Below, piece after piece: positions 1 through 46,117 of a DNA stretch of 64,000 nucleotides. The position numbers were made by a program, and so were the translations under genes. The notes beneath the pieces were generated by a model. It was not told the origin of the DNA. It did no database searches and was given only the letters and a program-made list of their open reading frames with translations. Origin of the DNA: Elusimicrobiota bacterium (GTDB lineage Bacteria > Elusimicrobiota > Elusimicrobia > UBA1565 > UBA9628); the NCBI GenBank assembly GCA_016194705.1, contig JACQAZ010000015.1, positions 4,771 to 68,770 of the forward strand, in the 5' to 3' direction. Positions within the stretch are counted from its first letter, which is position 1. Each line of letters starts with the position of its first letter.

Positions 1-1862
1 TGCCACTGGTCGTAGCGCTTCATGCGCTCGCGCGCGGCGCGCTCGGACTCGGGGTTCATGTAGGCCACGAAGCCGCGGTAGAGCAGCTGCGCTCCGTAGT
101 CGGTCTCTTTCATGACCCGCGGCACGGCCCGGCGCTCGGATTGCGACATCCCTCGGCCGATCTCCTGCAGGGCCCAGGCGGTCTCCTTGAGGCGCGTCAT
201 CTCGGACTCGGTCAGCACGCTGTAGGAGAGAGCCGCGAAGAGCAGGTCCGCGTGTTCCGCCGGCACGAAGAGGAAGATCCGGAACAGGGGATCCTGCTGC
301 GCCATGAGCAGCAGGCGTCCGGGACCGAAACAATTGCGCACGTCCTGCTGGGAGACCCCCCAGGTCTTCTGGACCTTGTCGATCACGGCTTGATCGTCGA
401 CCATGTCGGAGAGCAGGTAGAGCGGCACGCCCGCCTGGTGGTTGCGGCGGACGAACTCGGAGAACAGCCCGAGGGCTCGGAGCCGCGGGTAGCGGTCGAG
501 ATAATACTCGAGGACCTCGCGCGTGCGGTGGGCGAAGTAGGGCAGATAGACCTTCGCGTTCGGAAAGCCCAAGCCCGAGAGGATGATCCAGCTCGAGGCG
601 ACGGTGTGGTCCCGCACGAACAGGCTGCGCTGGTAGCCCACGTTGTTTTCGAGTTTGCTCTGCGGGAGGATCCCTTCGCCGAAATTCCAAGCTCCCAGGC
701 AGGCGACGGCGAGGGCGCCGGCGCAGAGAGTCGGGGGCCTCAGGCCCGGGCCCGATTCGAACGCCTCGCGGGCCGCCAGGGCCAGCACCGCGATTCCCGC
801 GGCGCACGGCACGGTCCAAAAATAGACGCCTCCATGCCAGAAGGCGTCGAGAACGACGAAGAGGCCTCCCCAGAGGGCGAGGATCACGAGTTGGGCGCGC
901 CTGGCGGGCCGCCGTCTCCAGAGCCAGACCGACGCGCCGAGCAGAGAGGCCGCCAGAGCCCCCCCGCCCGCCACGGCCGGAAGGCGCGCGGCCCAAGGAC
1001 AGGCCGCGACGGCGAGCAGGGAGGCGGCGAGCACATCGGCGACCGGAAGCCCGCGCCCCGCGAAGAAGCCCAGCAGATGCGACCAGCCGCCGCCGGAGGT
1101 CGCGTGGACGTCGGCCGCCTCGGAGAAGAACGCGAACAGGCTGCGCGCGTCGCCCAGCCGAAAGGCGAGCGCGTAGGGCGCGGCGACGCCCAAAGCGAGC
1201 GCCGGCGCCAGCCACCAGGCCGGGCGCCCTCGTCGGCCGCGCCAGGCCGCCCAGACCGCCGCCGCCGCCATGGGCACCAGAGCCGCGTCGGCGGCGTGGA
1301 ACAGCACGCCGGTCACGAGGCTGCCGCCGAGCAGGCCGGCCGCCGTCGGCGTGCCCTCCTCGGCCAGGCTCAGAGCGCAAGCCCCCGCGGCCAGGGCCCA
1401 AAAGGTCATCATCATGTAGACCTGGCCCTCGGTCGCCCGGCTCCAATAGCTGAACGAGACCGCCAGCGCCGCGGCGCCCAAGGCCGCCAGCGCGCGATCG
1501 CGCGTGAGCCGAAAGAGGAGACGGAAATAGACCGCCGCGCCGAAGAGCCCGAATACGGCGTTGATCCTCTGGATCAGGACATAGGCGCGCGTCGGCAGCC
1601 CGACGAGGGCCAAAGCGTCGCGCAGGCCCATCACGAAGGGGTTGAAGAGCAGATGGCGTCTGTTGAAGACCTCCCGGCGCCATTCGTCGACGGCGCGCTC
1701 GATGACGCCGGAGAACATGATGCCGTCGAAGACGTACACCTTGTCGGGAAATCCGAGGTAGAGAGCCAGAAGGACGAACACGGCCGCTCCCGCGGCGCGC
1801 AGGAGCCACGCGTCCGGGGCTGCCGCGGGAGCCTGCCGTGCGTTGGGCGCAGCGACCTTCAC
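1..1862 (-). CDS. Polytopic membrane protein, GT-C fold glycosyltransferase-like (ArnT/PMT-like); partial, C-terminus beyond the window start
   Basis: Minus-strand reading frame open from a GTG at 1860-1862 to the window edge, so the ORF track did not report it. My hand translation gives many hydrophobic helices (for example AGLLGGSLVTGVLF, LAVSFSYWSRATEGQVYMMMTFWALAAG) and a C-terminal soluble region. The nearest in-frame upstream stop is at 1941-1943. The plus-strand 1530-aa ORF covering this region is its antisense artefact. Confidence 0.6.
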   Translation of the reverse strand, partial: MKVAAPNARQAPAAAPDAWLLRAAGAAVFVLLALYLGFPDKVYVFDGIMFSGVIERAVDEWRREVFNRRHLLFNPFVMGLRDALALVGLPTRAYVLIQRINAVFGLFGAAVYFRLLFRLTRDRALAALGAAALAVSFSYWSRATEGQVYMMMTFWALAAGACALSLAEEGTPTAAGLLGGSLVTGVLFHAADAALVPMAAAAVWAAWRGRRGRPAWWLAPALALGVAAPYALAFRLGDARSLFAFFSEAADVHATSGGGWSHLLGFFAGRGLPVADVLAASLLAVAACPWAARLPAVAGGGALAASLLGASVWLWRRRPARRAQLVILALWGGLFVVLDAFWHGGVYFWTVPCAAGIAVLALAAREAFESGPGLRPPTLCAGALAVACLGAWNFGEGILPQSKLENNVGYQRSLFVRDHTVASSWIILSGLGFPNAKVYLPYFAHRTREVLEYYLDRYPRLRALGLFSEFVRRNHQAGVPLYLLSDMVDDQAVIDKVQKTWGVSQQDVRNCFGPGRLLLMAQQDPLFRIFLFVPAEHADLLFAALSYSVLTESEMTRLKETAWALQEIGRGMSQSERRAVPRVMKETDYGAQLLYRGFVAYMNPESERAARERMKRYDQW

Positions 1863-2174
1863 CCTATCGTGATAGCAATTCGAGCAGGGTCTTCGCCAGG
1901 CGGCGCCGCTCGACCTCGTCGCGCAGGCGCACCTCCGCGCTCACGAAGCCGTCGCCGTCGCTCTCGACCCAGACCACCTCGGCGGGCAGATCCCGGAAGC
2001 GCTCGTCGGCCAGCACGAAGCTCAGCAAGACCCGCTCGTGGCGCGAGAGCCGGGTCTGCGTCGAGACGACCGCGCTCGCGGCGCAAAGCTCCTCGAGCCG
2101 CCCCCAGCCCTCGACGCGCCCCGACTCGGGCGGGAAGCGCAGCAGGACGGGCGCCTGGGCGCCGCGCGCGCGCC

Positions 2175-3329
2175 TCATTTGAGCCCGAGAATCGAGTGGC
2201 GGTAGACGCGCGCCGGTCCGGACTCCTTCGGGATGGTCTCGCCCACGCTCCAGAAGCGCTCTCCGTCCCAGGCCAGGCCGACGGGACGGTGACGGCCATC
2301 CTGGTATTCGGCCAAAGATATCTTTTCGACGGCCTCGTCGGGCCGCTCGAGGTTGTGGCGCACCAGCTCGCGGTTGCCCGCGTCGAGCGACCACAGGGAG
2401 CGCCCGTCCCAGACCAAAGCGGCTGGAGAGCTTCCCGGATACTTGTAGGAGGCCACGGTGGAGAGATCGGCATCCAGGAGATGCTTGTGGATCTTGTGCT
2501 GGCGCGAGTCGCAGGTCCAAACGTAGAGACCGTCGAAGGCCATGCCCAAAGTGTTGGGAGCGGCATCCAGATAGGTCTGAACGGGGGTGAGCTTGTCGTC
2601 CTTCATGCGGCGGTCGATGCGGCCCGAGGCCGAGACCGTCCAGACCGCGTCGGCCCCGAAGGCGAGCGCGACGGGCGTCTCGTCGGTGAAATGGACGATC
2701 CGGTCGAGGACCAAAGTGGCGGGGTCGTGCGAGTAGAGCGACTGGGTGTACCAGTCCGCGACCCACAGCCGTCCCGCGTCGAAGGCCATCCCCGCGGGAT
2801 GTCTTGTCGGCAGGTCCCAATGGTCCTTGCGCGCGAGCGCCTCCTGGCGCTGCCGCTGCTGGCGCTGCAGCGACAGCGTCCCGAAGGCCGCCGCGAAAAA
2901 GGCCAGCACCGCGAAGAAGTAGACGGCCGCGCTCGGCCGGCGCGGCATCCGCGCGACCGAGTACGCCGTCCCCGGCAGACGCGAGGCCTTCGCAAGGCAG
3001 GCCGAGAGCGCCTCCCGCGTCCACGGCGGCGCGACCACCTCGGCGGCGCCCGTGCGCATCAGGCGCACCGCGCGCGTCGCGTCGCGCTCGGTCAGCGCGA
3101 CGACGACCGGCATGAGCGGGGCGACCCTCAGGATCTCGCGCAGGAGGGCCTCGGCGTCGCTCTGCGGGGAATCGACGATCAGCATGAGCCGCGGCCGGCT
3201 TTCCCGCAGCAGCTCGACGGCCTCGGGCAGCCGGGCGACCCCGCGGACCTGGTGGCCGGCCTCTCCCGAGATGAGGGCGAGCGTCTCGCGGTCCGAGGCG
3301 TCGCCGCAGAGCAAGCCGATGGCGGCCAT
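2175..3329 (-). CDS. Response-regulator receiver-like domain + TM segment + β-propeller (glutamine-cyclotransferase-like repeats) protein
   Basis: 384 aa. N-terminal REC-like segment, a hydrophobic stretch (AAVYFFAVLAFFAAAFGTL), then a C-terminal region with repeated G.A.DG..LW blade-like motifs. Three nt separate it from the next minus-strand gene. Confidence 0.6.
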   Translation of the reverse strand: MAAIGLLCGDASDRETLALISGEAGHQVRGVARLPEAVELLRESRPRLMLIVDSPQSDAEALLREILRVAPLMPVVVALTERDATRAVRLMRTGAAEVVAPPWTREALSACLAKASRLPGTAYSVARMPRRPSAAVYFFAVLAFFAAAFGTLSLQRQQRQRQEALARKDHWDLPTRHPAGMAFDAGRLWVADWYTQSLYSHDPATLVLDRIVHFTDETPVALAFGADAVWTVSASGRIDRRMKDDKLTPVQTYLDAAPNTLGMAFDGLYVWTCDSRQHKIHKHLLDADLSTVASYKYPGSSPAALVWDGRSLWSLDAGNRELVRHNLERPDEAVEKISLAEYQDGRHRPVGLAWDGERFWSVGETIPKESGPARVYRHSILGLK

Positions 3330-3332
3330 GGC

Positions 3333-4709
3333 CTAGGGCTTCGGGGGCTTCGGGATCACGAACTCCGAGCCCTCCTGGGGGAGTCCGCGCTCGACCTTGT
3401 CGCGGTTGGCGTCATAGATGAGCTCCCAGAGGTTGCCGTCGCCGTAGAAGGTCTTGGCCATCGAGCGCAGTGTCTCTCCGGGCTTGACCACGTGGCGCTG
3501 CGGCCACGACGGCTTCTTGGGCGGCGGAGGAGGGCGGATGATCGGCGGCGCGCGCTTGGGCGCCTTGCGCGCCGCTTCGTCGAGCTCGGACTCCTTGAGG
3601 CCGAACTCCGCCTCCTCCTTCTTTCTCTGCAGCCCGCGGTATTCCTCGCCGACCTCTTTGACCCTTTGCTCGAGCACGCCGAGCTCGGCCTCCGAAATCT
3701 GGCGGTGGGTCTCCGCGGTCGCGGCCTCCTCGTCGGCCGCCTTCTTGCGCTCGGCGAGCTTCTCGATCTCGGACTGCAGCGACTGGGCCGAGCTCGCCGC
3801 CGAGCCCACGAAGTTGCCCGTAAACGACGGCGCTCCGAAGCGCCAGCTGGCGCTCATCTGGAAGCCGCCCCCGGGCCGGTGGATTCCTCCCGAAGGCAAG
3901 GTCATCGCGAAATCCAGGACCAAGGGGGAGAGGTTGAAGCCGAGCCCCCAGGCGAACTGGCTGACCCCGTCGAGCTGGAAGCCGCGCCCGGCGCGGACCT
4001 TGAGCATGCCCTCGTAGAACGACGCCTCGACGCCCGGGTAGAAATCCGTCAAGTTCTGGCGGATCTTGGTGTCGGCCGCGATGGTGAGCCACTTGTGCCA
4101 GACATAGGCGAGGCCGAAATTGAACTTGGGGCGCGGCTGCCCGACGTTGGTGACGAGGTCGCTCATGACGGCCGAGCCGCTCAGCCCGAAATTGCTGCGC
4201 GCCAGCACGCCGAAGTCGAGCCCCATGCCGAACAGGCTCGAGCTCCCCGGATGGCCTTCGTTGATGTTGAGGAATTTCCAGTCTCCGCCGACCTTGAGCG
4301 GCTTGGTCAGCAGGAGCTGGGGGACCTTGATCTCCTGAGAATAGTTGAACCTCAGCTCGTCCTTGTCGCCCCCGTTGAGCTGGCGGATCGACATGTAGGC
4401 GCCGCCGACCGTGGCCGTGTTGATCAGCTCGAAGGGGCGCATGTAGGCCATCGCGGCGTAGGACATCGTCCCGACCGGCGAGAGCTGCCGCCCGACGCTG
4501 GCGCTGGCCTGCGCGTAAGGGGTGTTGGCGGGCCCCCCCGGGTTGAAGAACAAGGCGTAGGCGTCGTCGGCCACGGCCGAATAGGCCATGCCCATGCCCA
4601 TGGCCTTGGCGCCCGGCGCGAAGTCGTCGAAATCGGCGGCCGAACAGGGCCAAGCCGCGGCCAGCGGCAGGAAAGCGGCAAGCAGGCGCGCGAATCCTCT
4701 GAGGGTCAT
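3333..4709 (-). CDS. Outer-membrane β-barrel-like protein with a coiled-coil segment and C-terminal LysM domain
   Basis: Signal peptide MTLRGFARLLAAFLPLAAAWPCSAA (start chosen at the internal Met; the ORF track start is 4757). Gly/aromatic-rich β-strand region, then a charged coiled coil (EIEKLAERKKAADEEA...), then a C-terminal LysM-like segment VVKPGETLRSMAKTFYGDGNLWELIYDANRDKV. Confidence 0.6.
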   Translation of the reverse strand: MTLRGFARLLAAFLPLAAAWPCSAADFDDFAPGAKAMGMGMAYSAVADDAYALFFNPGGPANTPYAQASASVGRQLSPVGTMSYAAMAYMRPFELINTATVGGAYMSIRQLNGGDKDELRFNYSQEIKVPQLLLTKPLKVGGDWKFLNINEGHPGSSSLFGMGLDFGVLARSNFGLSGSAVMSDLVTNVGQPRPKFNFGLAYVWHKWLTIAADTKIRQNLTDFYPGVEASFYEGMLKVRAGRGFQLDGVSQFAWGLGFNLSPLVLDFAMTLPSGGIHRPGGGFQMSASWRFGAPSFTGNFVGSAASSAQSLQSEIEKLAERKKAADEEAATAETHRQISEAELGVLEQRVKEVGEEYRGLQRKKEEAEFGLKESELDEAARKAPKRAPPIIRPPPPPKKPSWPQRHVVKPGETLRSMAKTFYGDGNLWELIYDANRDKVERGLPQEGSEFVIPKPPKP

Positions 4710-4760
4710 TCCGTGCGGATTATAGCTAAATAACATTACGCGAATATTACCAAGCAATAC

Positions 4761-4795: not shown

Positions 4796-5680
4796 ATGGA
4801 CGAGGCGCAGCCCCCCCCGCAGCGACGCAGCTGGCTCGCAGCCCTCCTGGTGGTCCTGGCGATCGGAGGCTCCGCGGTCGGGGTCTTCATCTATCAGCTC
4901 CTGCAGGGCAACCGCAAGTCGAGCCTCGACGCCTCGGGGTTCGACATCGCCCAAACGACCGACAATACGCCTCGCCCGACCTCGACGCCGGTCGCGCAGC
5001 CCCAGTCCAGCCTGGGAGTCATCAGCACCGGACTTTCGGGCATCCACTTCGGCAGGACCGCGGGCCCCGGAGGCACCCCGGCGCAGCAGGCCGAAGACGC
5101 GGCCTCGAAGGCCGCCGAGACCTTCTCGCAGCTCTGCGTCAGGAACGAGGCCAAGGTTCGGTCCTTCGCTGAGAAATACACCAAGCAAAGCCCGACTCTC
5201 CAGAAGTACGGAAGAGAGTGGATGAGCTACCCGGACCTCAAGAAGCTCAACGACGACTACATGCGCAACCACGACCCCATCGCCTTCCTGCGCGGCTTGA
5301 CCCAATCCGCGAACTTCCCGAAGCTGGTCAAGAAGTACGCGGGAGATTCCTCGATGCAGGGGTTCGTCCGCGACGGGATGAAGCAGACCCCTCCCGAGCT
5401 TCTGAACTCGGGGATCAGCTACATGAACAAGGACAACGTCGTCAAGCAGCTCGTCACCAAGGTCATGGAAAGTCTCGGGATCCCCGCGATGGCGCTGGGC
5501 GCGGCCCCGGGAGCGGGGCAGCTCGACCCGGCCAAGATCATGGGCTCCGTCCTGGGGAACAATCCCCAGCTCCAAAAGGCGATGGAGAGCAACCCCGAGA
5601 TCCAGAAGAAGCTGCAGAACAACCCGGGACTCAAGCAAAACCTTCAGGAAGCCAACCAACTGCAGCAGCAGAGCCGCTGA
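4796..5680 (+). CDS. Membrane-anchored hypothetical protein (N-terminal TM, Gln/Asn-rich C-terminal tail)
   Basis: 294 aa, with a TM anchor WLAALLVVLAIGGSAVGVFIY. No recognisable catalytic motifs. Followed by a hairpin at 5698-5719. Confidence 0.55.
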   Translation: MDEAQPPPQRRSWLAALLVVLAIGGSAVGVFIYQLLQGNRKSSLDASGFDIAQTTDNTPRPTSTPVAQPQSSLGVISTGLSGIHFGRTAGPGGTPAQQAEDAASKAAETFSQLCVRNEAKVRSFAEKYTKQSPTLQKYGREWMSYPDLKKLNDDYMRNHDPIAFLRGLTQSANFPKLVKKYAGDSSMQGFVRDGMKQTPPELLNSGISYMNKDNVVKQLVTKVMESLGIPAMALGAAPGAGQLDPAKIMGSVLGNNPQLQKAMESNPEIQKKLQNNPGLKQNLQEANQLQQQSR

Positions 5681-5697
5681 GCCGCCGGAAAAGCCAG

Positions 5698-5719
5698 AGC
5701 CCCGCCGCTTGGCGGGGCT
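5698..5719. terminator. Candidate bidirectional intrinsic terminator hairpin
   Basis: AGCCCCGCC-GCTT-GGCGGGGCT perfect 9-bp stem between convergent genes (4796..5680 + and 5759..6025 -). The T-tract is weak. Confidence 0.4.
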
Positions 5720-5758
5720 CTCCTCTCGAGTGAAGAAAGGTCTTTGGCTGTTTGCGGC

Positions 5759-6025
5759 CTATTTCGAGATGCTCAACGGCGGAGCCTGGCTGGTCGAGGC
5801 CGTCCCTGAACCGCCGCCCCCGCCGCCCCCCGTATTCGAGTTGGCGACGCACGTGTTGCCCACCTGGTGCGTGCCTTGTCCGCAAGTCAAGGTCGAAGTG
5901 TTCGTGCCGGGAGCAGGCTGGCTTCCGCCGCCGCAGCCGCCGCCGCTGCCGCCCCCGCAAGCCAACGTCCCCGCCAGGGCGAACGCGAACCACACGGCCG
6001 TCGCCTTAAGAATATTCTTTTTCAT
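5759..6025 (-). CDS. Small secreted Gly/Cys-rich protein, paralog A (C-x9-C GTHQ motif)
   Basis: Start taken at MKKNILK, preceded by a strong SD (AGGAGGAGG). Signal/lipoprotein-like N-terminus ending LAGTLAC. Contains the motif CGQGTHQVGNTCVAN. Its upstream region is homologous to that of paralog B. Confidence 0.6.
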   Translation of the reverse strand: MKKNILKATAVWFAFALAGTLACGGGSGGGCGGGSQPAPGTNTSTLTCGQGTHQVGNTCVANSNTGGGGGGGSGTASTSQAPPLSISK

Positions 6026-6146
6026 TGCCTCCTCCTCACTCGACATAGTTTACGGCCGTGGACCCATCCTGTCAATAGGAAACTCTGAATTTTATTGAAG
6101 TTTTACCAAAAGCGGCAAATCCACGAATTCCCCAGTAAAATACTTG

Positions 6147-6386
6147 CTATTTCGGCGCCGCGGCCTTTCCCGGCTTCGCTGGGTTGCTGACGCAGCGCTG
6201 TCCCTCTTGGTGAGTCCCCGGCTCGCACTGCATCAGGTCCTTCTCGGTGTACTCCTGCTGGGGCGCGCCGAGACTGGTCAGACGATCCCAGTTCATGCTG
6301 ACGACGCCCGCGTAGCCGAGGCCGGCCAGTATCGTCGCGGCCAGCATGCGCCACCAGAACGCCGCGGCCGATCGTTTTCTCGCCAT
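6147..6386 (-). CDS. Small membrane-anchored protein, paralog B (C-x9-C GTHQ motif)
   Basis: 79 aa with a TM anchor FWWRMLAATILAGLGYAGVV. Contains the motif CEPGTHQEGQRCVSN, which matches paralog A. SD GAGGAG. Its 5'UTR carries the GGNCCGTAAACTA..GTCGAG..GAGGAG element shared with paralog A. Confidence 0.6.
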   Translation of the reverse strand: MARKRSAAAFWWRMLAATILAGLGYAGVVSMNWDRLTSLGAPQQEYTEKDLMQCEPGTHQEGQRCVSNPAKPGKAAAPK

Positions 6387-6431
6387 GTCTCACTCTCCTC
6401 GACCGTAGTTTAGGTCCAGAACGCGCGGCTG

Positions 6432-7280
6432 TCAAGCCTCAGCGGCGCACAGCCGGCGATGCGTCGCCTCCGCGGCGAGCAGGCTCGCGGCGCACAGCAG
6501 CGCGCTGGCGGCGATGTCGACGAGGAAGTGCCAGCCCAGCAGCAGGGTCGACAACACGACGAGTCCGTTGAGCAGCGCGACGGGAACGAAGAGCCGCCGG
6601 TCGGCCGCGGCGGCGTAGGTCAACAGGATGGCCCATACGGCGTGGAATGAGGGCAGCGCCACCATCCCCCCCATGAGAGTCGTGACCTCCTGGAAGTGGT
6701 GGACCTGATGGAATTTCAAGGACGTCAACCGCTGCTCGGGTGAGAAGAGTTCGCCGGGGAGTATGCTCGCCGGCCCCGAACTCGGGAAAAGATAGTAGAA
6801 CAACCCTCCCACGATGTAGGAATACGCGACGGCGTAGAGGAACACCCGCGTGCGGCGGCGATCGAGGAAGAGATCGGCCGCCAGCGGCACGAGGAAGAGC
6901 TCGAGGTTCAAGGCCGGATAGCTGGCGCGCATCAGCGACCACAGCCAGGGGCGCGCGAAGCTCCAGGACATCGCGCCCGTGACGGAGACGCCAAGGCGCG
7001 AGTCCCACGCCGCGATGCGCGCGTCGATCGGCGAAAACGGCGTGAACTGGATCGCGCTCGTCATGACCGACACGGCCGAGGCGAGCAGCAGGAAGCCTGA
7101 GTAGTTGCGCAAGACGAAGGCCGCGCGGGCGTCGAGCCCGCGCGCGTACGCGGCGAACGCGGCCACCTCGAGCAGCGGCGCGATCAGGGCGATCGCGGGC
7201 CGCGGAAAATAGGAGATCCCCGTGAAGTGGAACCACAGCGCGTTGATCCCGATGAGCGCCGCCGAGACCGCGAGCATCAT
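6432..7280 (-). CDS. PAP2-superfamily integral membrane phosphatase-like protein
   Basis: 282 aa, polytopic. PAP2-like motifs LPSFHAVWA and GWHFLVDI. Confidence 0.7.
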   Translation of the reverse strand: MMLAVSAALIGINALWFHFTGISYFPRPAIALIAPLLEVAAFAAYARGLDARAAFVLRNYSGFLLLASAVSVMTSAIQFTPFSPIDARIAAWDSRLGVSVTGAMSWSFARPWLWSLMRASYPALNLELFLVPLAADLFLDRRRTRVFLYAVAYSYIVGGLFYYLFPSSGPASILPGELFSPEQRLTSLKFHQVHHFQEVTTLMGGMVALPSFHAVWAILLTYAAAADRRLFVPVALLNGLVVLSTLLLGWHFLVDIAASALLCAASLLAAEATHRRLCAAEA

Positions 7281-7316: not shown

Positions 7317-8225
7317 TCACAGGTGCGCTTGGAAGTCCCGGGAGATCATTCCCGGGACCCAGAATAGGTGCAGGATCGCCGTGTAGTGGCCCAACGGCAG
7401 CCAGACCTGGCGGCTGAGCGGAAAGGCCGCCTTGAGCTTCAGGGCGTTGGCCCTGGGCACGACGGTGTCCCAGCGCACGTTGACGAGCAGCGCCGGCTTG
7501 CCCGCGTTGGCCGCCGCGTAATCCGTCGGGTCGAGCCCCGCCATGGCGGGCCGAAGCGCTGCGGGATCGATGCGGGACCTGCGCAGGAACGGCTCGGTCA
7601 TCGAGCTGTGGCCGATGAGATCGGGAAAATCCGCGCCGCCGAGCATGAAGACGGCGTACTTCGGAGCCGGGTCGACCGAGTAGGCGGCGGCCGCGACCAT
7701 CGCCCCGAGGCTCACGCCGAAGAGCCCGATGCGGCCGCGGTCGACCTCGGGGCGGCTCGAGAGCCATGCCAGGGCGCGCCTGGCGTCGAGCGCCGATTGG
7801 CGGAAGTTGAAGGCGAGCCTCTTGGCCGTGCGCGCGAGGAAGACTTGGCCGCTCGGCTGGGAGGAATCGGGACGGCGGTGGAACTGGTAGGGCATCTCGA
7901 GCCAAAGGACCCCGAAGCCGTCGCGCCGGAAGCGCTTCATGAAGCGCTCCTCGATCCAGATGTTGGGCGCGGCCATGACCGGCAGCACGAGAATGCACGG
8001 ATGGACGCCGGAGGAGTCAGGTACAGAGTAATGGGCCCAGACGGTATCGTTGGCCGCAAAAGGGCTCTTGAGAGGGGATGGGAACTTGACCTCGTACTCG
8101 ACGCGTCCATCGCGGCGAGAGACCTCGCGCAGCTCGGCCCGGACCGGGGCCTTGGCGTCGTAGTCGAGCGGCGAGGACGGCGCCGCGCCGGCGGCCGTCG
8201 CGAGCAGGAGCGCCGCCGCGAGCAT
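7317..8225 (-). CDS. α/β-hydrolase (dienelactone-hydrolase-like), secreted
   Basis: Signal peptide. Nucleophile elbow GVSLGA (G-x-S-x-G). Abuts the upstream OMP gene (8225/8226). Confidence 0.75.
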   Translation of the reverse strand: MLAAALLLATAAGAAPSSPLDYDAKAPVRAELREVSRRDGRVEYEVKFPSPLKSPFAANDTVWAHYSVPDSSGVHPCILVLPVMAAPNIWIEERFMKRFRRDGFGVLWLEMPYQFHRRPDSSQPSGQVFLARTAKRLAFNFRQSALDARRALAWLSSRPEVDRGRIGLFGVSLGAMVAAAAYSVDPAPKYAVFMLGGADFPDLIGHSSMTEPFLRRSRIDPAALRPAMAGLDPTDYAAANAGKPALLVNVRWDTVVPRANALKLKAAFPLSRQVWLPLGHYTAILHLFWVPGMISRDFQAHL

Positions 8226-42959: not shown

Positions 42960-45394
42960 GCCGCAAGGCCCGCGTCGTCATCATCGGCTCCGGCATCGCG
43001 GGCTCGTCCATCGCCTATCACCTGGCCGAGCTCGGCTGGAAGGACATACTCGTGCTCGAGCAGGGCGAGCCGGTCTCGGGCACGACCTCGCACGCGCCGG
43101 GCCTGGTCGGGCAGCTGCGCTCATCCGCGTCGCTGACCAAGATGCTCATGTACAGCGTCGCGCTCTACAAGAAGCTGCGCTACAGAAGCGAGCCCGGCTT
43201 CTTCCCGGTCGGCAGCCTGAGGCTCGCCTCCTCGCACGAGCGCCTCTTGGAGCTCAAGCGCCAGGAGAGCTTCGCCAAGACCGTCGGTCTCGAGGCGCGG
43301 CTGCTGAGCGCCGCGGAGGCGGCGAAGATGTTCCCGTTGATGGAATCCGAAGGCGTTCACGGGGCGCTCTACCTGCCCGGCGACGGCTCGGCGCGCGCGG
43401 TCATACTCGCCCAAGCGCTCGCGCAGGCGGCCAAGGACAAGGGCGTCGAGTTCCTCCCCTACGCCAAAGTCGTTTCGTTCGATATTCGCGACGGCCGCGT
43501 CGTGGGACTCAGCACGCCGCAGGAGGACATCCTCTGCGACCTGGTCGTCGCGGCCTCGGGGATCTGGTCCGCGCAGCTCGGCCGCCTGGCGGGCGTGCGC
43601 ATTCCCTTGATCCCGATGCAGCACCAGTACGCCGCCACGGCCCCCCTGCCCGAGCTCAAGGCCTTGGGCGCCCACACCCTGCCGAACCTCCGCGATCCCG
43701 ACAACTTGGTCTATTTCCGCCAGGACGGCGAGGGCCTGGTGCTCGGCGGCTACGAGCGGGACCCCGCCCCGTTCTATCACGAACGCGTCCCGGAAGGAGC
43801 CAACCCCACGGTCCTCGACTATACGCCCGCGCGCTTCGAGAGCCTCTGGGAGGGCTGCCTCAAGAGAGTGCCGCTGCTCAAGGGCGCCTCGCTCGTCAAA
43901 AAGGTCAACGGTCTCGAGTCCTTCACGCCCGACGGGGAGTTCATCCTCGGCCCGGCGCCGGAGCTCAAGGGCTTCTGGGCCGCCTGCGGGTTCTGCGCCC
44001 ACGGCGTCTCGGGCTCCGGCGGGGTGGGCAAGATGCTCGCCGAATGGATCGTCGAGGGCGAGCCGACTCTCGATCTGTGGCATATGGACATCAGACGCTT
44101 CGGAGGCTACGTCTCCAAGACGGGCTACATCGCCGCCCGCGCCTGCGAGGTCTACGCGACGTATTACGACATCGCCTATCCCAACCGCGAGAAAGAGAGC
44201 CAGCGCAAGCTGCGCTTGAGCCCCATGTACGGCCAGCTGTCCGCGCTGGACTGCGTCTTCGGCGAGAAGTCGGGCTGGGAGCGGCCCAACTGGTTCGCCT
44301 CGAACGAGGCGCGCGCCGACGAGGGGACCTCTCCGGTGCCGCGCGGCTGGGCGGCGAAGAACTGGTCGCCCGCCATCGGCGCGGAGCACAAGGCCTGCCG
44401 CGAGGCCGTCGCCCTGTTCGACGAGTCCTCGTTCTCGAAGCTCGAGGTCTCCGGAGCGGGCGCGCTGGCCTTCCTCCAGCGCCTGACCGACAACCAGATG
44501 GACAAGCCCGAGGGCTCGGTCACCTACACCCAGATGCTCAACGAGCGCGGCGGCATCGAGTGCGACCTGACCGTGACGAGGCTGGGGAAGAATCGGTTCC
44601 GGCTGATTACGGGCACGGCCTTCGGCGTGCACGACACGGCGTGGCTGCTCAAGCACAAGCCGGCCGACGGCTCGGTCGGCGTCAAGGACCTGACCGACGA
44701 GCTCTGCTGCCTTGGGGTCTGGGGACCGCGGGCGCGGGAACTCCTCCAAGGGGTGAGCCCCGACGACGTCTCGAACGAGGGCTTCCCTTATCTGAGCGCT
44801 CGCGAGATCAAGGCCGCGGGGCTCGCGGTGTTCGCCGTGCGCGTGACCTACGTCGGCGAGCTCGGCTGGGAGCTCTACGCGCCGGCCAAGGAAGGCGGAA
44901 AGCTCTGGCAAGCGCTTTGGGAGGCGGGCAATCCTTTGGGCGCCGCCGCGGCGGGCTACCGCGCGATCGATTCCCTGCGCCTCGAGAAAGGCTACCGCTA
45001 CTGGAGCGCCGACATCCACTCGGAGTATAACCCGTACGAGGCCGGTCTGGGCTTCTGCGTAAAGCTCGACAAGGGCGACTTCATCGGCAAGCCCGCATTG
45101 GAGACATTCAAGGCGCGGGGCCTGACGCGCAAGCTGTGCTGCCTGACCCTAGACGACCCCGCCGCCGTGGCCTTGGGCGGGGAGGCGATCGCGCATGCGG
45201 GCCGCGTCGTCGGGCGCGTGACGAGCGCCGGCTACGGCTACACGCTGGGCAAGAGCATCGCTTACGGCTATCTGCCGATCGCGCACACCGAGCCCGGAAC
45301 CAAGCTCGAAGTCGAGCTCTTCGGCGAGAGGATTCCGGCCGTCGTGTGCAAAGAGCCGCTTTACGACCCGCGCAACGCGCGCATCAAGTCCTGA
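42956..45394 (+). CDS. Dimethylglycine oxidase/dehydrogenase-like FAD oxidoreductase fused to a GcvT (aminomethyltransferase) folate-binding domain
   Basis: GTG start. FAD motif VVIIGSGIAGSSIAYHL. C-terminal GcvT-like region (…VTYVGELGWELY…). 813 aa. Confidence 0.8.
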   Translation: MSRKARVVIIGSGIAGSSIAYHLAELGWKDILVLEQGEPVSGTTSHAPGLVGQLRSSASLTKMLMYSVALYKKLRYRSEPGFFPVGSLRLASSHERLLELKRQESFAKTVGLEARLLSAAEAAKMFPLMESEGVHGALYLPGDGSARAVILAQALAQAAKDKGVEFLPYAKVVSFDIRDGRVVGLSTPQEDILCDLVVAASGIWSAQLGRLAGVRIPLIPMQHQYAATAPLPELKALGAHTLPNLRDPDNLVYFRQDGEGLVLGGYERDPAPFYHERVPEGANPTVLDYTPARFESLWEGCLKRVPLLKGASLVKKVNGLESFTPDGEFILGPAPELKGFWAACGFCAHGVSGSGGVGKMLAEWIVEGEPTLDLWHMDIRRFGGYVSKTGYIAARACEVYATYYDIAYPNREKESQRKLRLSPMYGQLSALDCVFGEKSGWERPNWFASNEARADEGTSPVPRGWAAKNWSPAIGAEHKACREAVALFDESSFSKLEVSGAGALAFLQRLTDNQMDKPEGSVTYTQMLNERGGIECDLTVTRLGKNRFRLITGTAFGVHDTAWLLKHKPADGSVGVKDLTDELCCLGVWGPRARELLQGVSPDDVSNEGFPYLSAREIKAAGLAVFAVRVTYVGELGWELYAPAKEGGKLWQALWEAGNPLGAAAAGYRAIDSLRLEKGYRYWSADIHSEYNPYEAGLGFCVKLDKGDFIGKPALETFKARGLTRKLCCLTLDDPAAVALGGEAIAHAGRVVGRVTSAGYGYTLGKSIAYGYLPIAHTEPGTKLEVELFGERIPAVVCKEPLYDPRNARIKS

Positions 45395-45695
45395 GAACCG
45401 TCCGTCCCTTGAGCACCGCCGCGGTCCCCTTCTCGATCGTCTTGAGCCGCTTCTCCAGCTCCTGAAGCCGTTTCCCCTTTCCCCTATTTGCCTCAAACGC
45501 GAGGAGGATGTCCGCCGTCGCTTCCAGAGCGTCCTGCATGGCCGAGAATCGCCCTGGCTCGACGAGGACGGCCACCGGTCTTCCGTGCTTCTCGAGGTTG
45601 ACCGGGGTCTCGCGCAGCTGCGCGATGATCTGGTCCATGCGCGTGCGCAGCTCCGAGACGGCGGCGAAGGCCGCGGGGTGACGGACGATCTTCAT
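45384..45695 (-). CDS. Phd/YefM-family antitoxin (no cognate toxin adjacent)
   Basis: 103 aa. N-terminus MKIVRH…VSELRTRMDQIIAQL…HGRPVAVLVEP is typical of YefM/Phd. The 3' end overlaps the convergent oxidase gene by 11 nt. Confidence 0.65.
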   Translation of the reverse strand: MKIVRHPAAFAAVSELRTRMDQIIAQLRETPVNLEKHGRPVAVLVEPGRFSAMQDALEATADILLAFEANRGKGKRLQELEKRLKTIEKGTAAVLKGRTVLRT

Positions 45696-45723
45696 GCCGA
45701 GAGTGTAGCAGGTCCGGCTTATT

Positions 45724-45754
45724 TTGTCAATAATTTAGTCAATATAATTGACAA
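45724..45754. promoter_or_regulatory. Inverted-repeat operator TTGTCAAT-N14-ATTGACAA upstream of the Phd/YefM gene
   Basis: Perfect 8-bp arms, with an additional direct copy TAGTCAAT in the spacer. AT-rich, 29 nt upstream of the antitoxin start. Confidence 0.5.
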
Positions 45755-46117
45755 ATTATATCCCCACGAGACGGTCCCTCAAGATGAGAGGTAAAATAGA
45801 GGAAAATGAGACCAAAAAAAGACCATCGCAAGGCGGAGAGGAGAAATGGAAAAGGACCGGAGAATCCCGGTCCGTATTCCGCCGGAAAAAAGACCCAGTC
45901 CGGCTTCCGGAACGGCCGGCCGGGATTCAGCGGACGAAGAGATCGAAACTCCGGCCGCGCTGGAGACGAAAGCCGGATCAAACAAGGGATCGGCAAAAAG
46001 ACCATGAAAGAGCCCCCGCGCGCCGGAAGGCCCGGCTGCGCCCGGGACGGGACCGCTGTCAGGGCTGCGAGGCCCTGAATTCATCCGGAGCAGCCCGCTT
46101 TCCGGGTCTCCGCGAGG

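What the first reader, a model, noticed from the sequence alone, without database searches (positions are those of the whole stretch)
5759..6431. Tandem paralogous small proteins sharing a C-x4-HQ-x-G-x2-C-V-x-N motif and a duplicated 5'UTR
Two adjacent minus-strand genes (89 and 79 aa) have different N-termini (signal or lipoprotein-like vs TM anchor) but share CGQGTHQVGNTCVAN / CEPGTHQEGQRCVSN near the C-terminus. Their upstream regions are also homologous (GGNCCGTAAACTA(T/C)GGTCGAG…GAGGAG), so the duplication included regulatory sequence. A C-x9-C loop with invariant GTHQ suggests a disulfide-constrained or metal-binding loop of unknown function. Paralog A also has a CGGGSGGGCGGG Gly/Cys tract.
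Basis: seen in the sequence. Interest (0 to 1): 0.6.

Follow-up and report, generated by a model that had tools for sequence, protein, structure and literature searches.

The report
Tandem mini-proteins with disulfide hairpin module
Two neighbouring small envelope proteins of an uncultivated Elusimicrobia bacterium each carry one copy of a 12-residue hairpin, probably closed by a disulfide bond, that also forms long tandem arrays in large bacterial surface lipoproteins; the genes are real and conserved, but their function is unknown.

Summary
Gene A (5759-6025, minus strand, 88 aa) looks like a lipoprotein. Gene B (6147-6386, minus strand, 79 aa) has an N-terminal membrane anchor. Both carry C-x2-GTHQ-x-G-x2-C-V-x-N; the Cys spacing is C-x10-C, not C-x9-C.

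Both are real genes. Orthologues keep the motif, dN/dS is 0.16-0.40, and the B-A pair recurs in two other lineages.

An exhaustive profile search found 169 cluster representatives at E<=1e-3. About 88 are small single-motif proteins. 67 are large proteins with 1-18 (mostly 2 or more) tandem copies (period 17-21 aa) placed after the signal peptide and before unrelated domains.

AlphaFold predicts only a beta-hairpin, with the rest disordered. No Pfam, NCBIfam or PDB entry covers the module.

His is present in only 36% of the array copies, so an obligate metal site is unlikely.

The "duplicated 5'UTR" is mainly a shared promoter, TTGACA-N17-TAAACT, plus a Shine-Dalgarno site. The spacer and the sequence upstream of -35 are unrelated.

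My reading: these are strongly expressed, membrane-tethered periplasmic or surface mini-proteins that display one disulfide-closed hairpin. The function is unknown and is probably structural or binding. This is an uncatalogued variant of Cys-hairpin repeat modules, of moderate interest.

The parts
5759..6025 (-). Gene A: an 88-aa lipoprotein-type mini-protein. It has a signal peptide with a lipobox (TLAC, Cys23), a Gly/Ser/Cys tract, a disordered linker, the hairpin motif and a low-complexity tail ending in SISK.
   Evidence: ORF. Called as an 88-aa gene on the Logan contig L016. Orthologues in L003, L008, L010, L011 and L018. dN/dS 0.35-0.40.
5957..6025 (-). Signal peptide and lipobox of A (residues 1-23, with Cys23 as the putative lipidated +1 residue).
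   Evidence: A Prosite-style lipobox pattern is met. The lipobox Cys is at position 23 in 38 of 62 lipoprotein-type relatives.
5924..5959 (-). CGGGSGGGCGGG tract of A. The second Cys (C31) sits in a conserved G-G-C-G-G context.
   Evidence: In lipoprotein-type relatives a second Cys lies 2-14 residues after the lipobox Cys. Its context is GGCGG in 22 cases and SGCGG in 10.
5840..5884 (-). Hairpin module of A: C48-GQGTHQVGNT-C59-VAN.
   Evidence: AlphaFold strands at 52-55 and 58-61 with pLDDT about 81. C, G, T, H, C, V and N are invariant in 9 relatives.
6047..6075 (-). Promoter of A: -35 TTGACA, 17-nt spacer, -10 TAAACT.
   Evidence: The same architecture is found upstream of the A orthologues in L003, L008, L011, L010/L015 and L018.
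6076..6107 (-). AT-rich element resembling a promoter UP element (GGTAAAACTTCAATAAAATTCAGAGTTTCCTA) directly upstream of the -35 of A.
   Evidence: It lies in the third most AT-rich 60-nt stretch of the window. GGTAAAAsTTCAATwAAA is conserved in L003, palsa_1176 and L018. Its function as an UP element is inferred.
6030..6039 (-). Shine-Dalgarno region of A (GAGGAGGAGG), placed before the second ATG.
   Evidence: Seen in the sequence. AGTGAGGAGG is conserved in the A orthologues.
5687..5721 (-). Terminator-like hairpin after A: an 11-bp GC-rich stem followed by GGCUUUUCC. It is shared with the convergent gene at 4796-5680(+).
   Evidence: strand folding gives -39.1 kcal/mol, z = -4.6. A similar hairpin follows the orthologue in L003.
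6147..6386 (-). Gene B: a 79-aa membrane-anchored mini-protein with only 2 Cys. It is identical to NCBI hypothetical protein HY077_06695.
   Evidence: Orthologues in L015 (65% identity), P0054, P0055, P0068 and P0084. dN/dS 0.16.
6294..6362 (-). N-terminal hydrophobic signal-anchor of B (about residues 9-31, AFWWRMLAATILAGLGYAGVVSM), preceded by the basic stretch RKR.
   Evidence: Sequence and conserved WW...G.GY.G.V pattern in six B-type proteins. The topology (N-terminus inside, C-terminus outside) is inferred.
6183..6227 (-). Hairpin module of B: C54-EPGTHQEGQR-C65-VSN.
   Evidence: It is matched by an HMM built from lipoprotein-type sequences only, over B residues 40-74.
6407..6435 (-). 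Promoter of B: TTGACA-N17-TAAACT. The -35 hexamer overlaps the TGA stop codon of the upstream PAP2_3 gene.
   Evidence: B orthologues have TTGACA-N17-TAAACT (L017), TACACT (L015) or TACAAT (L019).
6389..6400 (-). Purine-rich Shine-Dalgarno region of B (GAGGAGAGTGAG).
   Evidence: Seen in the sequence. GTCGAGGA is also present in L017.

Best explanation
A and B are real, separately promoted genes for small envelope proteins. Each displays one copy of the same roughly 18-residue module, [LV][TS]-C-G-x-G-T-H-[QL]-x-G-x-x-C-V-[AP]-[ND].

Shown:
- The module is predicted to be a two-stranded beta-hairpin.
- It is the only ordered part of A.
- The same unit occurs 1-18 times (mostly 2 or more), head to tail, directly after the signal peptide or lipobox of large proteins with unrelated C-terminal domains.
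- A, B and their promoters are conserved, and the B-A pair recurs in other Elusimicrobia-like lineages.

Inferred:
- The two invariant Cys (C-x10-C) close the hairpin with a disulfide after Sec export.
- A is diacylated at Cys23 and hangs from a membrane by a flexible Gly/Ser linker. Gly at +2 suggests the outer membrane by the E. coli sorting rule.
- B stays in the inner membrane through an uncleaved signal anchor, with its hairpin in the periplasm.
- Both genes are highly expressed. Each has a consensus -35, a near-consensus -10 and a strong Shine-Dalgarno site. A also has an AT-rich element resembling a promoter UP element.
- In the large proteins the arrays act as a rigid, protease-resistant stalk. 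In the mini-proteins the single hairpin is a small tethered structural or binding knob, not a catalytic or obligate metal site.

B-A most likely arose by an old tandem duplication followed by a swap of the N-terminal anchor.
For: Real genes:
- Relatives keep the motif.
- Gene callers call both genes.
- dN/dS is 0.35-0.40 for A and 0.16 for B.
- A has its own promoter, Shine-Dalgarno site and terminator.

Family:
- The exhaustive HMM search gave 169 representatives at E<=1e-3 and 23 at E<=1e-10.
- The 88 small representatives split into 62 lipoprotein-type, 12 with a signal-peptidase-I-type signal and a GCC tract, 5 B-type and 9 other.
- 67 large proteins carry 1-18 copies (65 of them 2 or more) at a period of 17-21 aa, starting at a median of about residue 30. 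38 of the 67 have a lipobox-like N-terminus.
- Their C-terminal domains differ: an M23 peptidase in P0016, a weak, sub-threshold BamB/PQQ_2 propeller-like match in P0014, and long repeat arrays in L004.

Fold: a hairpin at A residues 52-61 with pLDDT about 81 and the rest below 50. Every repeat of P0024 is predicted as a hairpin.

Pair conservation: B-A is adjacent in palsa_1176 (L015|L010 are contiguous, 119-nt spacer) and in L017/L018.

Promoter conservation.

Module homology between A and B, independent of B-type sequences.
Against: - There are no expression, localisation or disulfide data. Everything comes from uncultivated genomes.
- The disulfide, the lipidation and the outer- versus inner-membrane sorting are inferred from sequence rules derived in other phyla.
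- GTHQ is much better conserved in the mini-proteins (His 67%, Gln 51%) than in the arrays (36%, 9%). The mini-proteins may therefore use His/Gln for something specific that a 'stalk' model does not explain.
- Lipoprotein-type members have an odd number of free Cys (the conserved GGCGG Cys). The model leaves this unexplained.
- No conserved partner gene was found. The only constant neighbour of A is a convergent 294-aa membrane protein, which may just reflect synteny among close relatives.
Confidence: 0.55

Rival explanations
1. Metal-binding or redox-active loop. Cys48, Cys59 and His53, with the free Cys31 in A, would coordinate Cu or Zn, or cycle between thiol and disulfide, making A and B small periplasmic metallochaperones or redox buffers.
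For: - His is invariant in the 9 closest relatives and present in 67% of small-protein copies.
- Lipoprotein-type members keep an extra conserved Cys in a GGCGG context, and the signal-peptidase-I-type members keep a CC pair.
- Small exported Cys-containing copper-binding peptides (bufferins, oxazolins) are known (cited in PMC13056109).
Against: - His is replaced by Y, V, T, K, I or M in many family members, and it is present in only 36% of array copies.
- B-type proteins have only the two loop Cys.
- Both loop Cys are the only residues besides Gly that are 100% conserved. This is typical of a structural disulfide in an exported hairpin.
- No metal-homeostasis genes are adjacent.
Confidence: 0.15
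2. An outer-membrane-to-peptidoglycan tether like Braun's lipoprotein (Lpp). A would be an abundant lipoprotein cross-linked to peptidoglycan through its C-terminal Lys, and B would be an inner-membrane counterpart.
For: - A strong consensus promoter with an AT-rich upstream element suggests high abundance.
- A, B and their closest orthologues end in a basic residue (SISK, SIRK, THK, SIRR, SIQR, QSSK, APK, AKK).
Against: - Across the 88 small representatives, by my own count only about 17 end in Lys, and Gln and Asn are about as common.
- No coiled coil is predicted. AlphaFold predicts disorder plus one hairpin.
- There is no Pfam LPP hit even at E<=10.
- The signal-peptidase-I-type members end right after the motif (...CVANQ).
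Confidence: 0.06
3. Precursors of ribosomally made, post-translationally modified lipopeptides (RiPP-lipoprotein hybrids). The Cys motif would be rewritten by a modifying enzyme before export.
For: - A published class (DAG-RiPPs) uses lipoprotein signal peptides on small Cys-motif precursors, and that motif also occurs on large proteins (PMC13056109).
- A has the same general look: a small lipoprotein with a conserved C-terminal Cys motif.
Against: - The defining motif there is CPxCGxG, next to an MNIO enzyme. Here the motif is different.
- None of the flanking genes in the window or the syntenic loci is an MNIO or radical-SAM enzyme. The neighbours are PAP2_3, an alpha/beta hydrolase and unknown membrane proteins.
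- Up to 18 tandem copies in large proteins fits a structural repeat, not a RiPP core.
Confidence: 0.04
4. Chance ORFs or a chance motif match in GC-rich DNA.
For: The window is 66% GC and full of long spurious ORFs. Both proteins are short and partly low-complexity.
Against: - Orthologues have mostly synonymous change inside the motif, and dN/dS is well below 1.
- 169 family representatives were found.
- Promoters, Shine-Dalgarno sites and the terminator are conserved.
- HMM separation from shuffled controls is 29.7 against 11.2 bits.
Confidence: 0.02

Closest known systems
C-terminal hairpin of EGF-like domains, and the A1 module of TNF-receptor / ephrin-receptor-like cysteine-rich domains (eukaryotic; recalled from my own knowledge of these families)
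   Same: Each is a short beta-hairpin closed by one disulfide, with the pattern C-x2-G-[aromatic/His]-...-G-x2-C. They are used in tandem as rigid extracellular spacers or binding surfaces.
   Different: - EGF domains have six Cys and three disulfides. TNFR domains pair A and B modules. This module has only two Cys with C-x10-C spacing.
- No EGF, TNFR_c6 or Ephrin_rec_like Pfam hit appeared at E<=1.
- The only traces were an EB-module hit at E=0.1 and an MSP1 EGF chain at E=5.6 in the PDB. Both are non-significant.
Myxococcales cysteine-rich repeats (TIGR04201 in TraA; TIGR02232) and NCBIfam NF041328 'MXAN_6577-like cysteine-rich protein'
   Same: These are bacterial, exported, tandem Cys-rich repeats. 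In TraA they are proposed to form a rigid stalk that presents a distal domain (PMC3325183). The arrays found here sit in the same position, between a membrane anchor and a variable domain, and several come from delta/myxo-type MAGs.
   Different: - No TIGR04201 or TIGR02232 hit at E<=1 in six array proteins.
- NF041328 hits only P0013, at 27.5 bits against a cutoff of 100.
- The Cys spacing and consensus differ.
- A and B carry a single copy and no other domain.
Small abundant or tethered bacterial lipoproteins (Lpp, LptM/YifL, the entericidin A/B tandem pair; my own knowledge)
   Same: Size of 40-90 aa, a lipobox, disordered tails and strong promoters. Entericidins are also tandem paralogous small lipoprotein genes.
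   Different: - None of them has a Cys hairpin.
- No Pfam hit for A or B at E<=10.
- The only NCBIfam hit at E<=1 was a spurious signal-peptide match of A to the fusolisin model (15.5 bits against a cutoff of 999).
- Lpp is a coiled coil. Entericidins are amphipathic helices.
DAG-RiPPs (ChrA/DybA-like lipidated macrocyclic peptides)
   Same: Small precursors with lipoprotein or signal-peptidase-I signal peptides and a conserved Cys motif that also appears on large proteins (PMC13056109).
   Different: The motif there is CPxCGxG, and a neighbouring MNIO enzyme is required. Neither is present here.

Membership tests
Bacterial lipoprotein (signal peptidase II substrate) | N-terminal basic region, hydrophobic region, and a lipobox [LIVMFWSTAG]2-[LIVMFYSTAGCQ]-[AGS]-C within about the first 35 residues | tested here: met
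   A reads MKKNILK-ATAVWFAFALAGTLA-C23 and matches a Prosite-style regular expression. 62 of 88 small relatives also match, with the Cys at position 23 in 38 of them. B has no Cys in its N-terminal region, so it does not meet this feature. Lipidation itself was not tested.
EGF-like / TNFR-like cysteine-rich domains | A match to the Pfam models (EGF, hEGF, EGF_2, TNFR_c6, Ephrin_rec_like), and 6 Cys (EGF) or paired A/B modules (TNFR) | tested here: not met
   No such Pfam hit for A or B at E<=10, or for 8 array proteins at E<=1. Each module has only 2 Cys.
Myxococcales Cys-rich repeats (TIGR04201, TIGR02232) | A match to the TIGRFAM/NCBIfam repeat models | tested here: not met
   The NCBIfam scan of A, B and six array proteins at E<=1 returned neither model.
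NF041328 MXAN_6577-like cysteine-rich protein | A score at or above the curated cutoff of 100 bits | tested here: not met
   Only P0013 hits, at 27.5 bits. A and B have no hit.
Braun lipoprotein (Lpp) | A trimeric coiled-coil heptad sequence (Pfam LPP) | tested here: not met
   No Pfam hit. AlphaFold predicts no helix beyond the signal peptide.
Braun lipoprotein (Lpp) | A C-terminal Lys cross-linked to peptidoglycan | not testable with these tools
   A and B end in Lys, but by my count only about 17 of 88 small relatives do. Cross-linking needs muropeptide analysis.
DAG-RiPP / MNIO-modified precursors | A CPxCGxG (or EGKCG) core motif and an adjacent MNIO (DUF692) gene | tested here: not met
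   The motif is absent from A and B. The seven flanking genes have no MNIO hit, and the syntenic loci show none. The definition comes from PMC13056109.
Uncurated 'CGxGTH hairpin' mini-protein family (defined here) | 55-110 aa, an N-terminal export or anchor signal, and a single C-G-x-G-T-x4-G-x-C-V module after a low-complexity linker | tested here: met
   A, together with the 8 relatives it was aligned with, seeded the profile used in the library search (alignment A3). That search matches the close A relatives P0003 and P0002 over their full length at E 2e-27 and 2e-25. B is matched at 29.7 bits by a profile built without any B-type sequence.
Rfam RNA families (leader or riboswitch in the shared upstream region) | A covariance-model match | tested here: not met
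   No match at E<=1 in 5000-7000. The B-A spacer folds no better than shuffled sequence (z = 0.38).

The most novel reading that the evidence does not exclude
The CGxGTH unit would be a previously uncatalogued, widespread bacterial extracellular repeat and one of the smallest disulfide-closed repeats (about 18 aa). Elusimicrobia-like bacteria would have made it into highly expressed stand-alone mini-proteins that work as a matched pair. An inner-membrane-anchored copy (B) and an outer-membrane lipoprotein copy (A) would present the same His/Gln-bearing hairpin to a common periplasmic target such as peptidoglycan, a metal ion or an envelope machine. That would be a new kind of envelope organiser or tether.
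Probability: 0.1. Interest if true: 0.65.

Novelty: new variant of a known kind. Interest (0 to 1): 0.4.

Why it matters
Small exported proteins are routinely missed or left as 'hypothetical'. Here a 15-residue match spotted by eye leads to a family of at least 169 sequence clusters that has no Pfam or NCBIfam model and no relative of solved structure. The family includes a modular hairpin repeat placed between the lipid anchor and the working domain of many large surface lipoproteins. The same hairpin also occurs after RHS-core-like ends.

Describing the module would improve annotation of envelope proteins in Elusimicrobiota, Myxococcota-like MAGs and others. It would also give a minimal disulfide-closed scaffold of about 12-18 residues of possible use in peptide engineering.

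If the conserved, strongly promoted B-A pair turns out to have a specific envelope role, it would add to the sparse knowledge of cell-envelope organisation in an almost uncultivated phylum. As it stands the function is unknown, and the finding is moderately interesting rather than surprising.

Tried and rejected
I replaced it with a back-translated DNA pattern scan of genome contigs and metagenome contigs.
- Pfam, NCBIfam, Rfam and PDB-sequence searches gave nothing above threshold.
- Cluster look-up gave no organism names or functions, only 'hypothetical protein' on short metagenome contigs.
- Literature searches for MXAN_6577, Elusimicrobia small lipoproteins and Cys-rich hairpin repeats found nothing on this motif. 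They gave only the analogies of the TraA stalk and the DAG-RiPPs.
- The AlphaFold model of the array protein P0024 was run without an alignment and was poor overall (mean pLDDT 44). It was useful only for showing one hairpin per repeat.
- I did not run fold search. Both models are mostly low-confidence, and a 12-residue hairpin is too small for meaningful structural matches.
- I rejected the idea that the shared upstream sequence is a duplicated leader RNA: there is no structure, no Rfam hit and no similarity outside the promoter hexamers and Shine-Dalgarno site.
- I looked for functional linkage to the upstream PAP2_3 gene and rejected it. PAP2_3 is absent next to the A orthologues in L008, L011 and L014, and lies 7.5 kb away in palsa_1176.
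Full report
**Observation**

On the minus strand there are two short ORFs. A runs 5759-6025 and encodes 88 aa from MKKNIL; a 95-aa version starts at an in-frame ATG that abuts the -10 hexamer. B runs 6147-6386 and encodes 79 aa.
- C..GTHQ occurs nowhere else in the six-frame translation of the 64-kb window.
- BLASTP of A against B gives 32% identity and E=7e-7.
- The CGGGSGGGCGGG tract is present.
- Two details need correction. The Cys spacing is C-x10-C, not C-x9-C. The quoted upstream consensus is not literally present in either gene.

**The upstream similarity**

Both genes are preceded by an exact TTGACA-N17-TAAACT. There are two exact matches in the window against 0.01 expected, and they score 10/12 on the sigma-70 consensus scan.
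- Outside the two hexamers the similarity vanishes. The spacer is 5/17 identical (p 0.78) and the sequence upstream of -35 is unrelated (p 0.92).
- The short 5'UTRs share only a purine-rich Shine-Dalgarno site and GTCGAG (p about 0.03).
- No Rfam family matches, and the B-A spacer has no unusual fold (z 0.38).
- The shared element is therefore a promoter type, not a duplicated leader.
- The promoter is conserved for each gene separately. A orthologues in L003, L008, L011, palsa_1176 and L018 all carry TTGACA-N17/18-TAAACT, mostly preceded by a conserved AT-rich element, GGTAAAAsTTCAATwAAA.
- That AT-rich element lies in the third most AT-rich 60-nt stretch of the window.
- B orthologues carry TTGACA-N17-TAAACT, TACACT or TACAAT.
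- A is followed by an 11-bp GC-rich hairpin plus a U-run (z -4.6). B has no terminator, so read-through from B into A is possible.

**Are they real genes?**

Yes.
- B is identical to NCBI hypothetical protein HY077_06695 from an Elusimicrobia MAG.
- Both genes are called on an independent Logan assembly.
- Word-indexed searches found eight relatives that all keep C-x2-GTH-x2-x-x2-CV-x-N.
- Against orthologues, dN/dS is 0.35-0.40 for A, inflated by its low-complexity tail, and 0.16 for B.
- Inside the motif the differences between the window and L003 are almost all synonymous.

**What the motif is**

An exhaustive HMMER search of 1.84 billion cluster representatives with the 9-sequence profile gave 169 hits at E<=1e-3 and 23 at E<=1e-10. 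They fall into two classes.

1. About 88 proteins of 54-109 aa match end to end. They have three architectures.
   - 62 are lipoprotein-type, like A. The lipobox Cys is at residue 23 in 38 of them. A second Cys follows 2-14 residues later in a GGCGG or SGCGG context, then an 8-22-residue linker, then the motif.
   - 12 have a signal-peptidase-I-type signal followed by a G-rich tract ending in GCC.
   - 5 are B-type (6 counting L015). They have a basic N-terminus, a WW...G.GY.G.V hydrophobic anchor, W-D-R, EY[TS][DE]KDL.QC, and only two Cys.
   - 9 do not fit these classes.
2. 67 proteins longer than 115 aa carry 1-18 copies of profile positions about 44-63, and 65 of them carry two or more.
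   - The period is 17-21 aa, and the arrays start at a median of about residue 30.
   - 38 of the 67 have a lipobox-like N-terminus.
   - The arrays are followed by unrelated regions: an M23 peptidase (P0016), a weak, sub-threshold BamB/PQQ_2 propeller-like match (P0014), and long repeat arrays plus Cys-rich ends (L004).

The consensus from 84 plus 439 copies is [LV][TS]-C-G-x-G-T-H-[QL]-x-G-x-x-C-V-[AP]-[ND]. C, G and C are invariant. Thr is at 80-87%. His is at 67% in the mini-proteins but only 36% in the arrays.

A profile built from 52 lipoprotein-type proteins alone scores all six B-type proteins at 28.8-33.8 bits, against 11.2 bits for the best of 2000 shuffles. The aligned region is just the module and a few flanking residues. 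A and B are thus homologous in the module. Their N-terminal halves are different anchors.

**Fold**

AlphaFold2 with the family alignment predicts two strands (52-55 and 58-61) for A, with pLDDT about 81, and disorder elsewhere. A single-sequence model of the array protein P0024 gives one hairpin per repeat at pLDDT 60-74.

With both Cys invariant and the proteins exported, a disulfide-closed beta-hairpin is the natural reading. It is inferred, not shown.

**Known families**

- No Pfam model matches A or B at E<=10.
- Eight array proteins give only sub-threshold noise in the repeat region: ECR1_N, DUF5330 and EB.
- NCBIfam gives no TIGR04201 or TIGR02232. It gives only a 27.5-bit hit (cutoff 100) of P0013 to NF041328, 'MXAN_6577-like cysteine-rich protein'.
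- No PDB sequence relative exists.
- Literature searches found nothing on the motif.
- The nearest concepts are the single-disulfide hairpin of EGF and TNFR-type modules (my own knowledge), and the Cys-rich tandem repeats of Myxococcus TraA, proposed to be a rigid stalk (PMC3325183).

**Genomic context and history**

A back-translated pattern scan of one genome per GTDB species returned 12 hits.
- Six are in Elusimicrobia/Elusimicrobiota MAGs. All six are small proteins.
- Four are in delta/proteobacterial MAGs. These are arrays, or lipoproteins with the module right after the lipobox.

A is syntenic across loci.
- It is always convergent with a homologue of the 294-aa membrane protein (4796-5680, plus strand).
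- It lies near homologues of the 474-aa and 384-aa genes (L003, L008, L010, L011, L017/18).
- What lies upstream of A varies.

The B-A tandem is present in the window, in palsa_1176 and in L017/L018.
- In palsa_1176, L015 and L010 are contiguous and the spacer is 119 nt.
- The L017/L018 pair is shown.
- A occurs without B in L003, L008, L011 and L014, and B occurs alone in L019.
- In L003 the PAP2_3 gene runs straight into the A promoter. B was therefore either inserted in the pair-bearing lineage or lost in the L003 lineage.
- L014 and L045 carry a different tandem of two lipoprotein-type genes, so tandem duplication of these mini-genes is recurrent.

A-B divergence is old. dS is about 1.2 and dN 0.83, at or near saturation. 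Retention of the same promoter hexamers reflects selection.

**Mechanism**

Shown:
- The genes are real and conserved, with export or anchor signals.
- They carry a predicted hairpin module that also occurs as N-terminal arrays.
- They have strong-consensus promoters.

Inferred:
- A is Sec-exported, lipidated at Cys23 and tethered by a Gly/Ser linker. Gly at +2 suggests the outer membrane by the E. coli rule.
- B is a type-II inner-membrane protein with its hairpin in the periplasm.
- The hairpin is closed by a disulfide.
- In the large proteins the arrays act as a stalk or spacer.
- In the mini-proteins the single hairpin is a tethered structural or binding knob.

Unexplained:
- GTHQ is conserved more strongly in the mini-proteins than in the arrays.
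- Lipoprotein-type members carry an odd, conserved Cys in the GGCGG tract.

These two points keep a metal or redox role alive as the main rival (about 0.15). Three other rivals were considered.
- An Lpp-like peptidoglycan tether is suggested only by the basic C-termini of the closest relatives. It lacks family-wide support: by my count about 17 of 88 end in Lys, and there is no coiled coil.
- A RiPP-lipoprotein precursor (PMC13056109) fails on both the motif and the enzyme neighbourhood.
- Chance is excluded.

**Verdict**

The genes are paralogous in a disulfide-type loop. Metal binding is unsupported. The 'duplicated 5'UTR' is a shared promoter.

The genes belong to an uncurated but sizeable family built on a minimal Cys-hairpin repeat. 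I rate this a new variant of a known kind of module, with function unknown. Interest is 0.4.

Noticed in passing
window 45702-45761 (with the small minus-strand ORF at about 45390-45696): This is the most AT-rich 60 nt of the window (28% GC). It holds closely spaced TTGTCAA / TAGTCAA / TTGACAA repeats and a near-consensus promoter (TTGACA-N17-TACACT) directly upstream of a roughly 100-aa ORF. It looks like an autoregulated operator of a small, possibly antitoxin-like, gene.
   Followed up: partly
L015 454-1242 (+), palsa_1176 contig PLZD01000032.1: The gene divergently adjacent to the B orthologue is lgt, the prolipoprotein diacylglyceryl transferase (PF01790, E=1.5e-45). The enzyme that would lipidate A-type proteins therefore sits next to the B-A pair in that genome. 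This may be coincidence.
   Followed up: partly
L022 118-1089, L037 55-852, L042 644-1615, L044 746-1705: In four metagenome contigs, one or two copies of the same CG.GTHQ hairpin follow an RHS-core-like end (…YYNARYY[DE]P..G.FLSAD…DPTG…). They therefore sit at the start of what looks like a polymorphic-toxin C-terminal region.
   Followed up: no
L014 about 7560-7883 and L045 1897-2309: Two lipoprotein-type hairpin mini-genes lie in tandem (…VTCGPGT…C[IV]GT… followed by …CG[AP]GTHQ…CVNN). This is a tandem pair of a different composition from B-A, so duplication of these genes is recurrent.
   Followed up: partly
window 6044-6046 (ATG directly after the -10 TAAACT of A): An in-frame ATG abutting the -10 hexamer creates a 95-aa ORF, and a 98-aa version is called in L017. 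The conserved GAGGAGG Shine-Dalgarno site precedes the second ATG, so the 88-aa product is the likely one. Gene callers disagree.
   Followed up: yes
window 6430-6435 / 6432-6434: The TGA stop codon of the upstream PAP2_3 gene (6432-7280) lies inside the -35 TTGACA of B. In L003 the same overlap occurs with the -35 of A.
   Followed up: yes
window 3333-4757 (-): This is a 474-aa protein with a signal peptide and no Pfam hit. By eye its C-terminus resembles a LysM domain (HVVKPGETLRSMAKTFYGDGNLWELIYDANRD) after a charged, coiled-coil-like stretch. It is conserved next to A in all syntenic loci.
   Followed up: no
window 141-4733 (+): This 1530-aa ORF is an antisense artefact of the 66% GC content. 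It lies over real minus-strand genes (2175-3329 and 3333-4757) that have orthologues.
   Followed up: partly
L024, L027, L029, L035, L040 (about 216-226-aa lipoproteins): A recurrent soil-metagenome lipoprotein has the hairpin immediately after the lipobox (…GCGGSS…LSCSAGTHQEGNACVPN…), followed by an uncharacterised globular region with no Pfam hit.
   Followed up: partly
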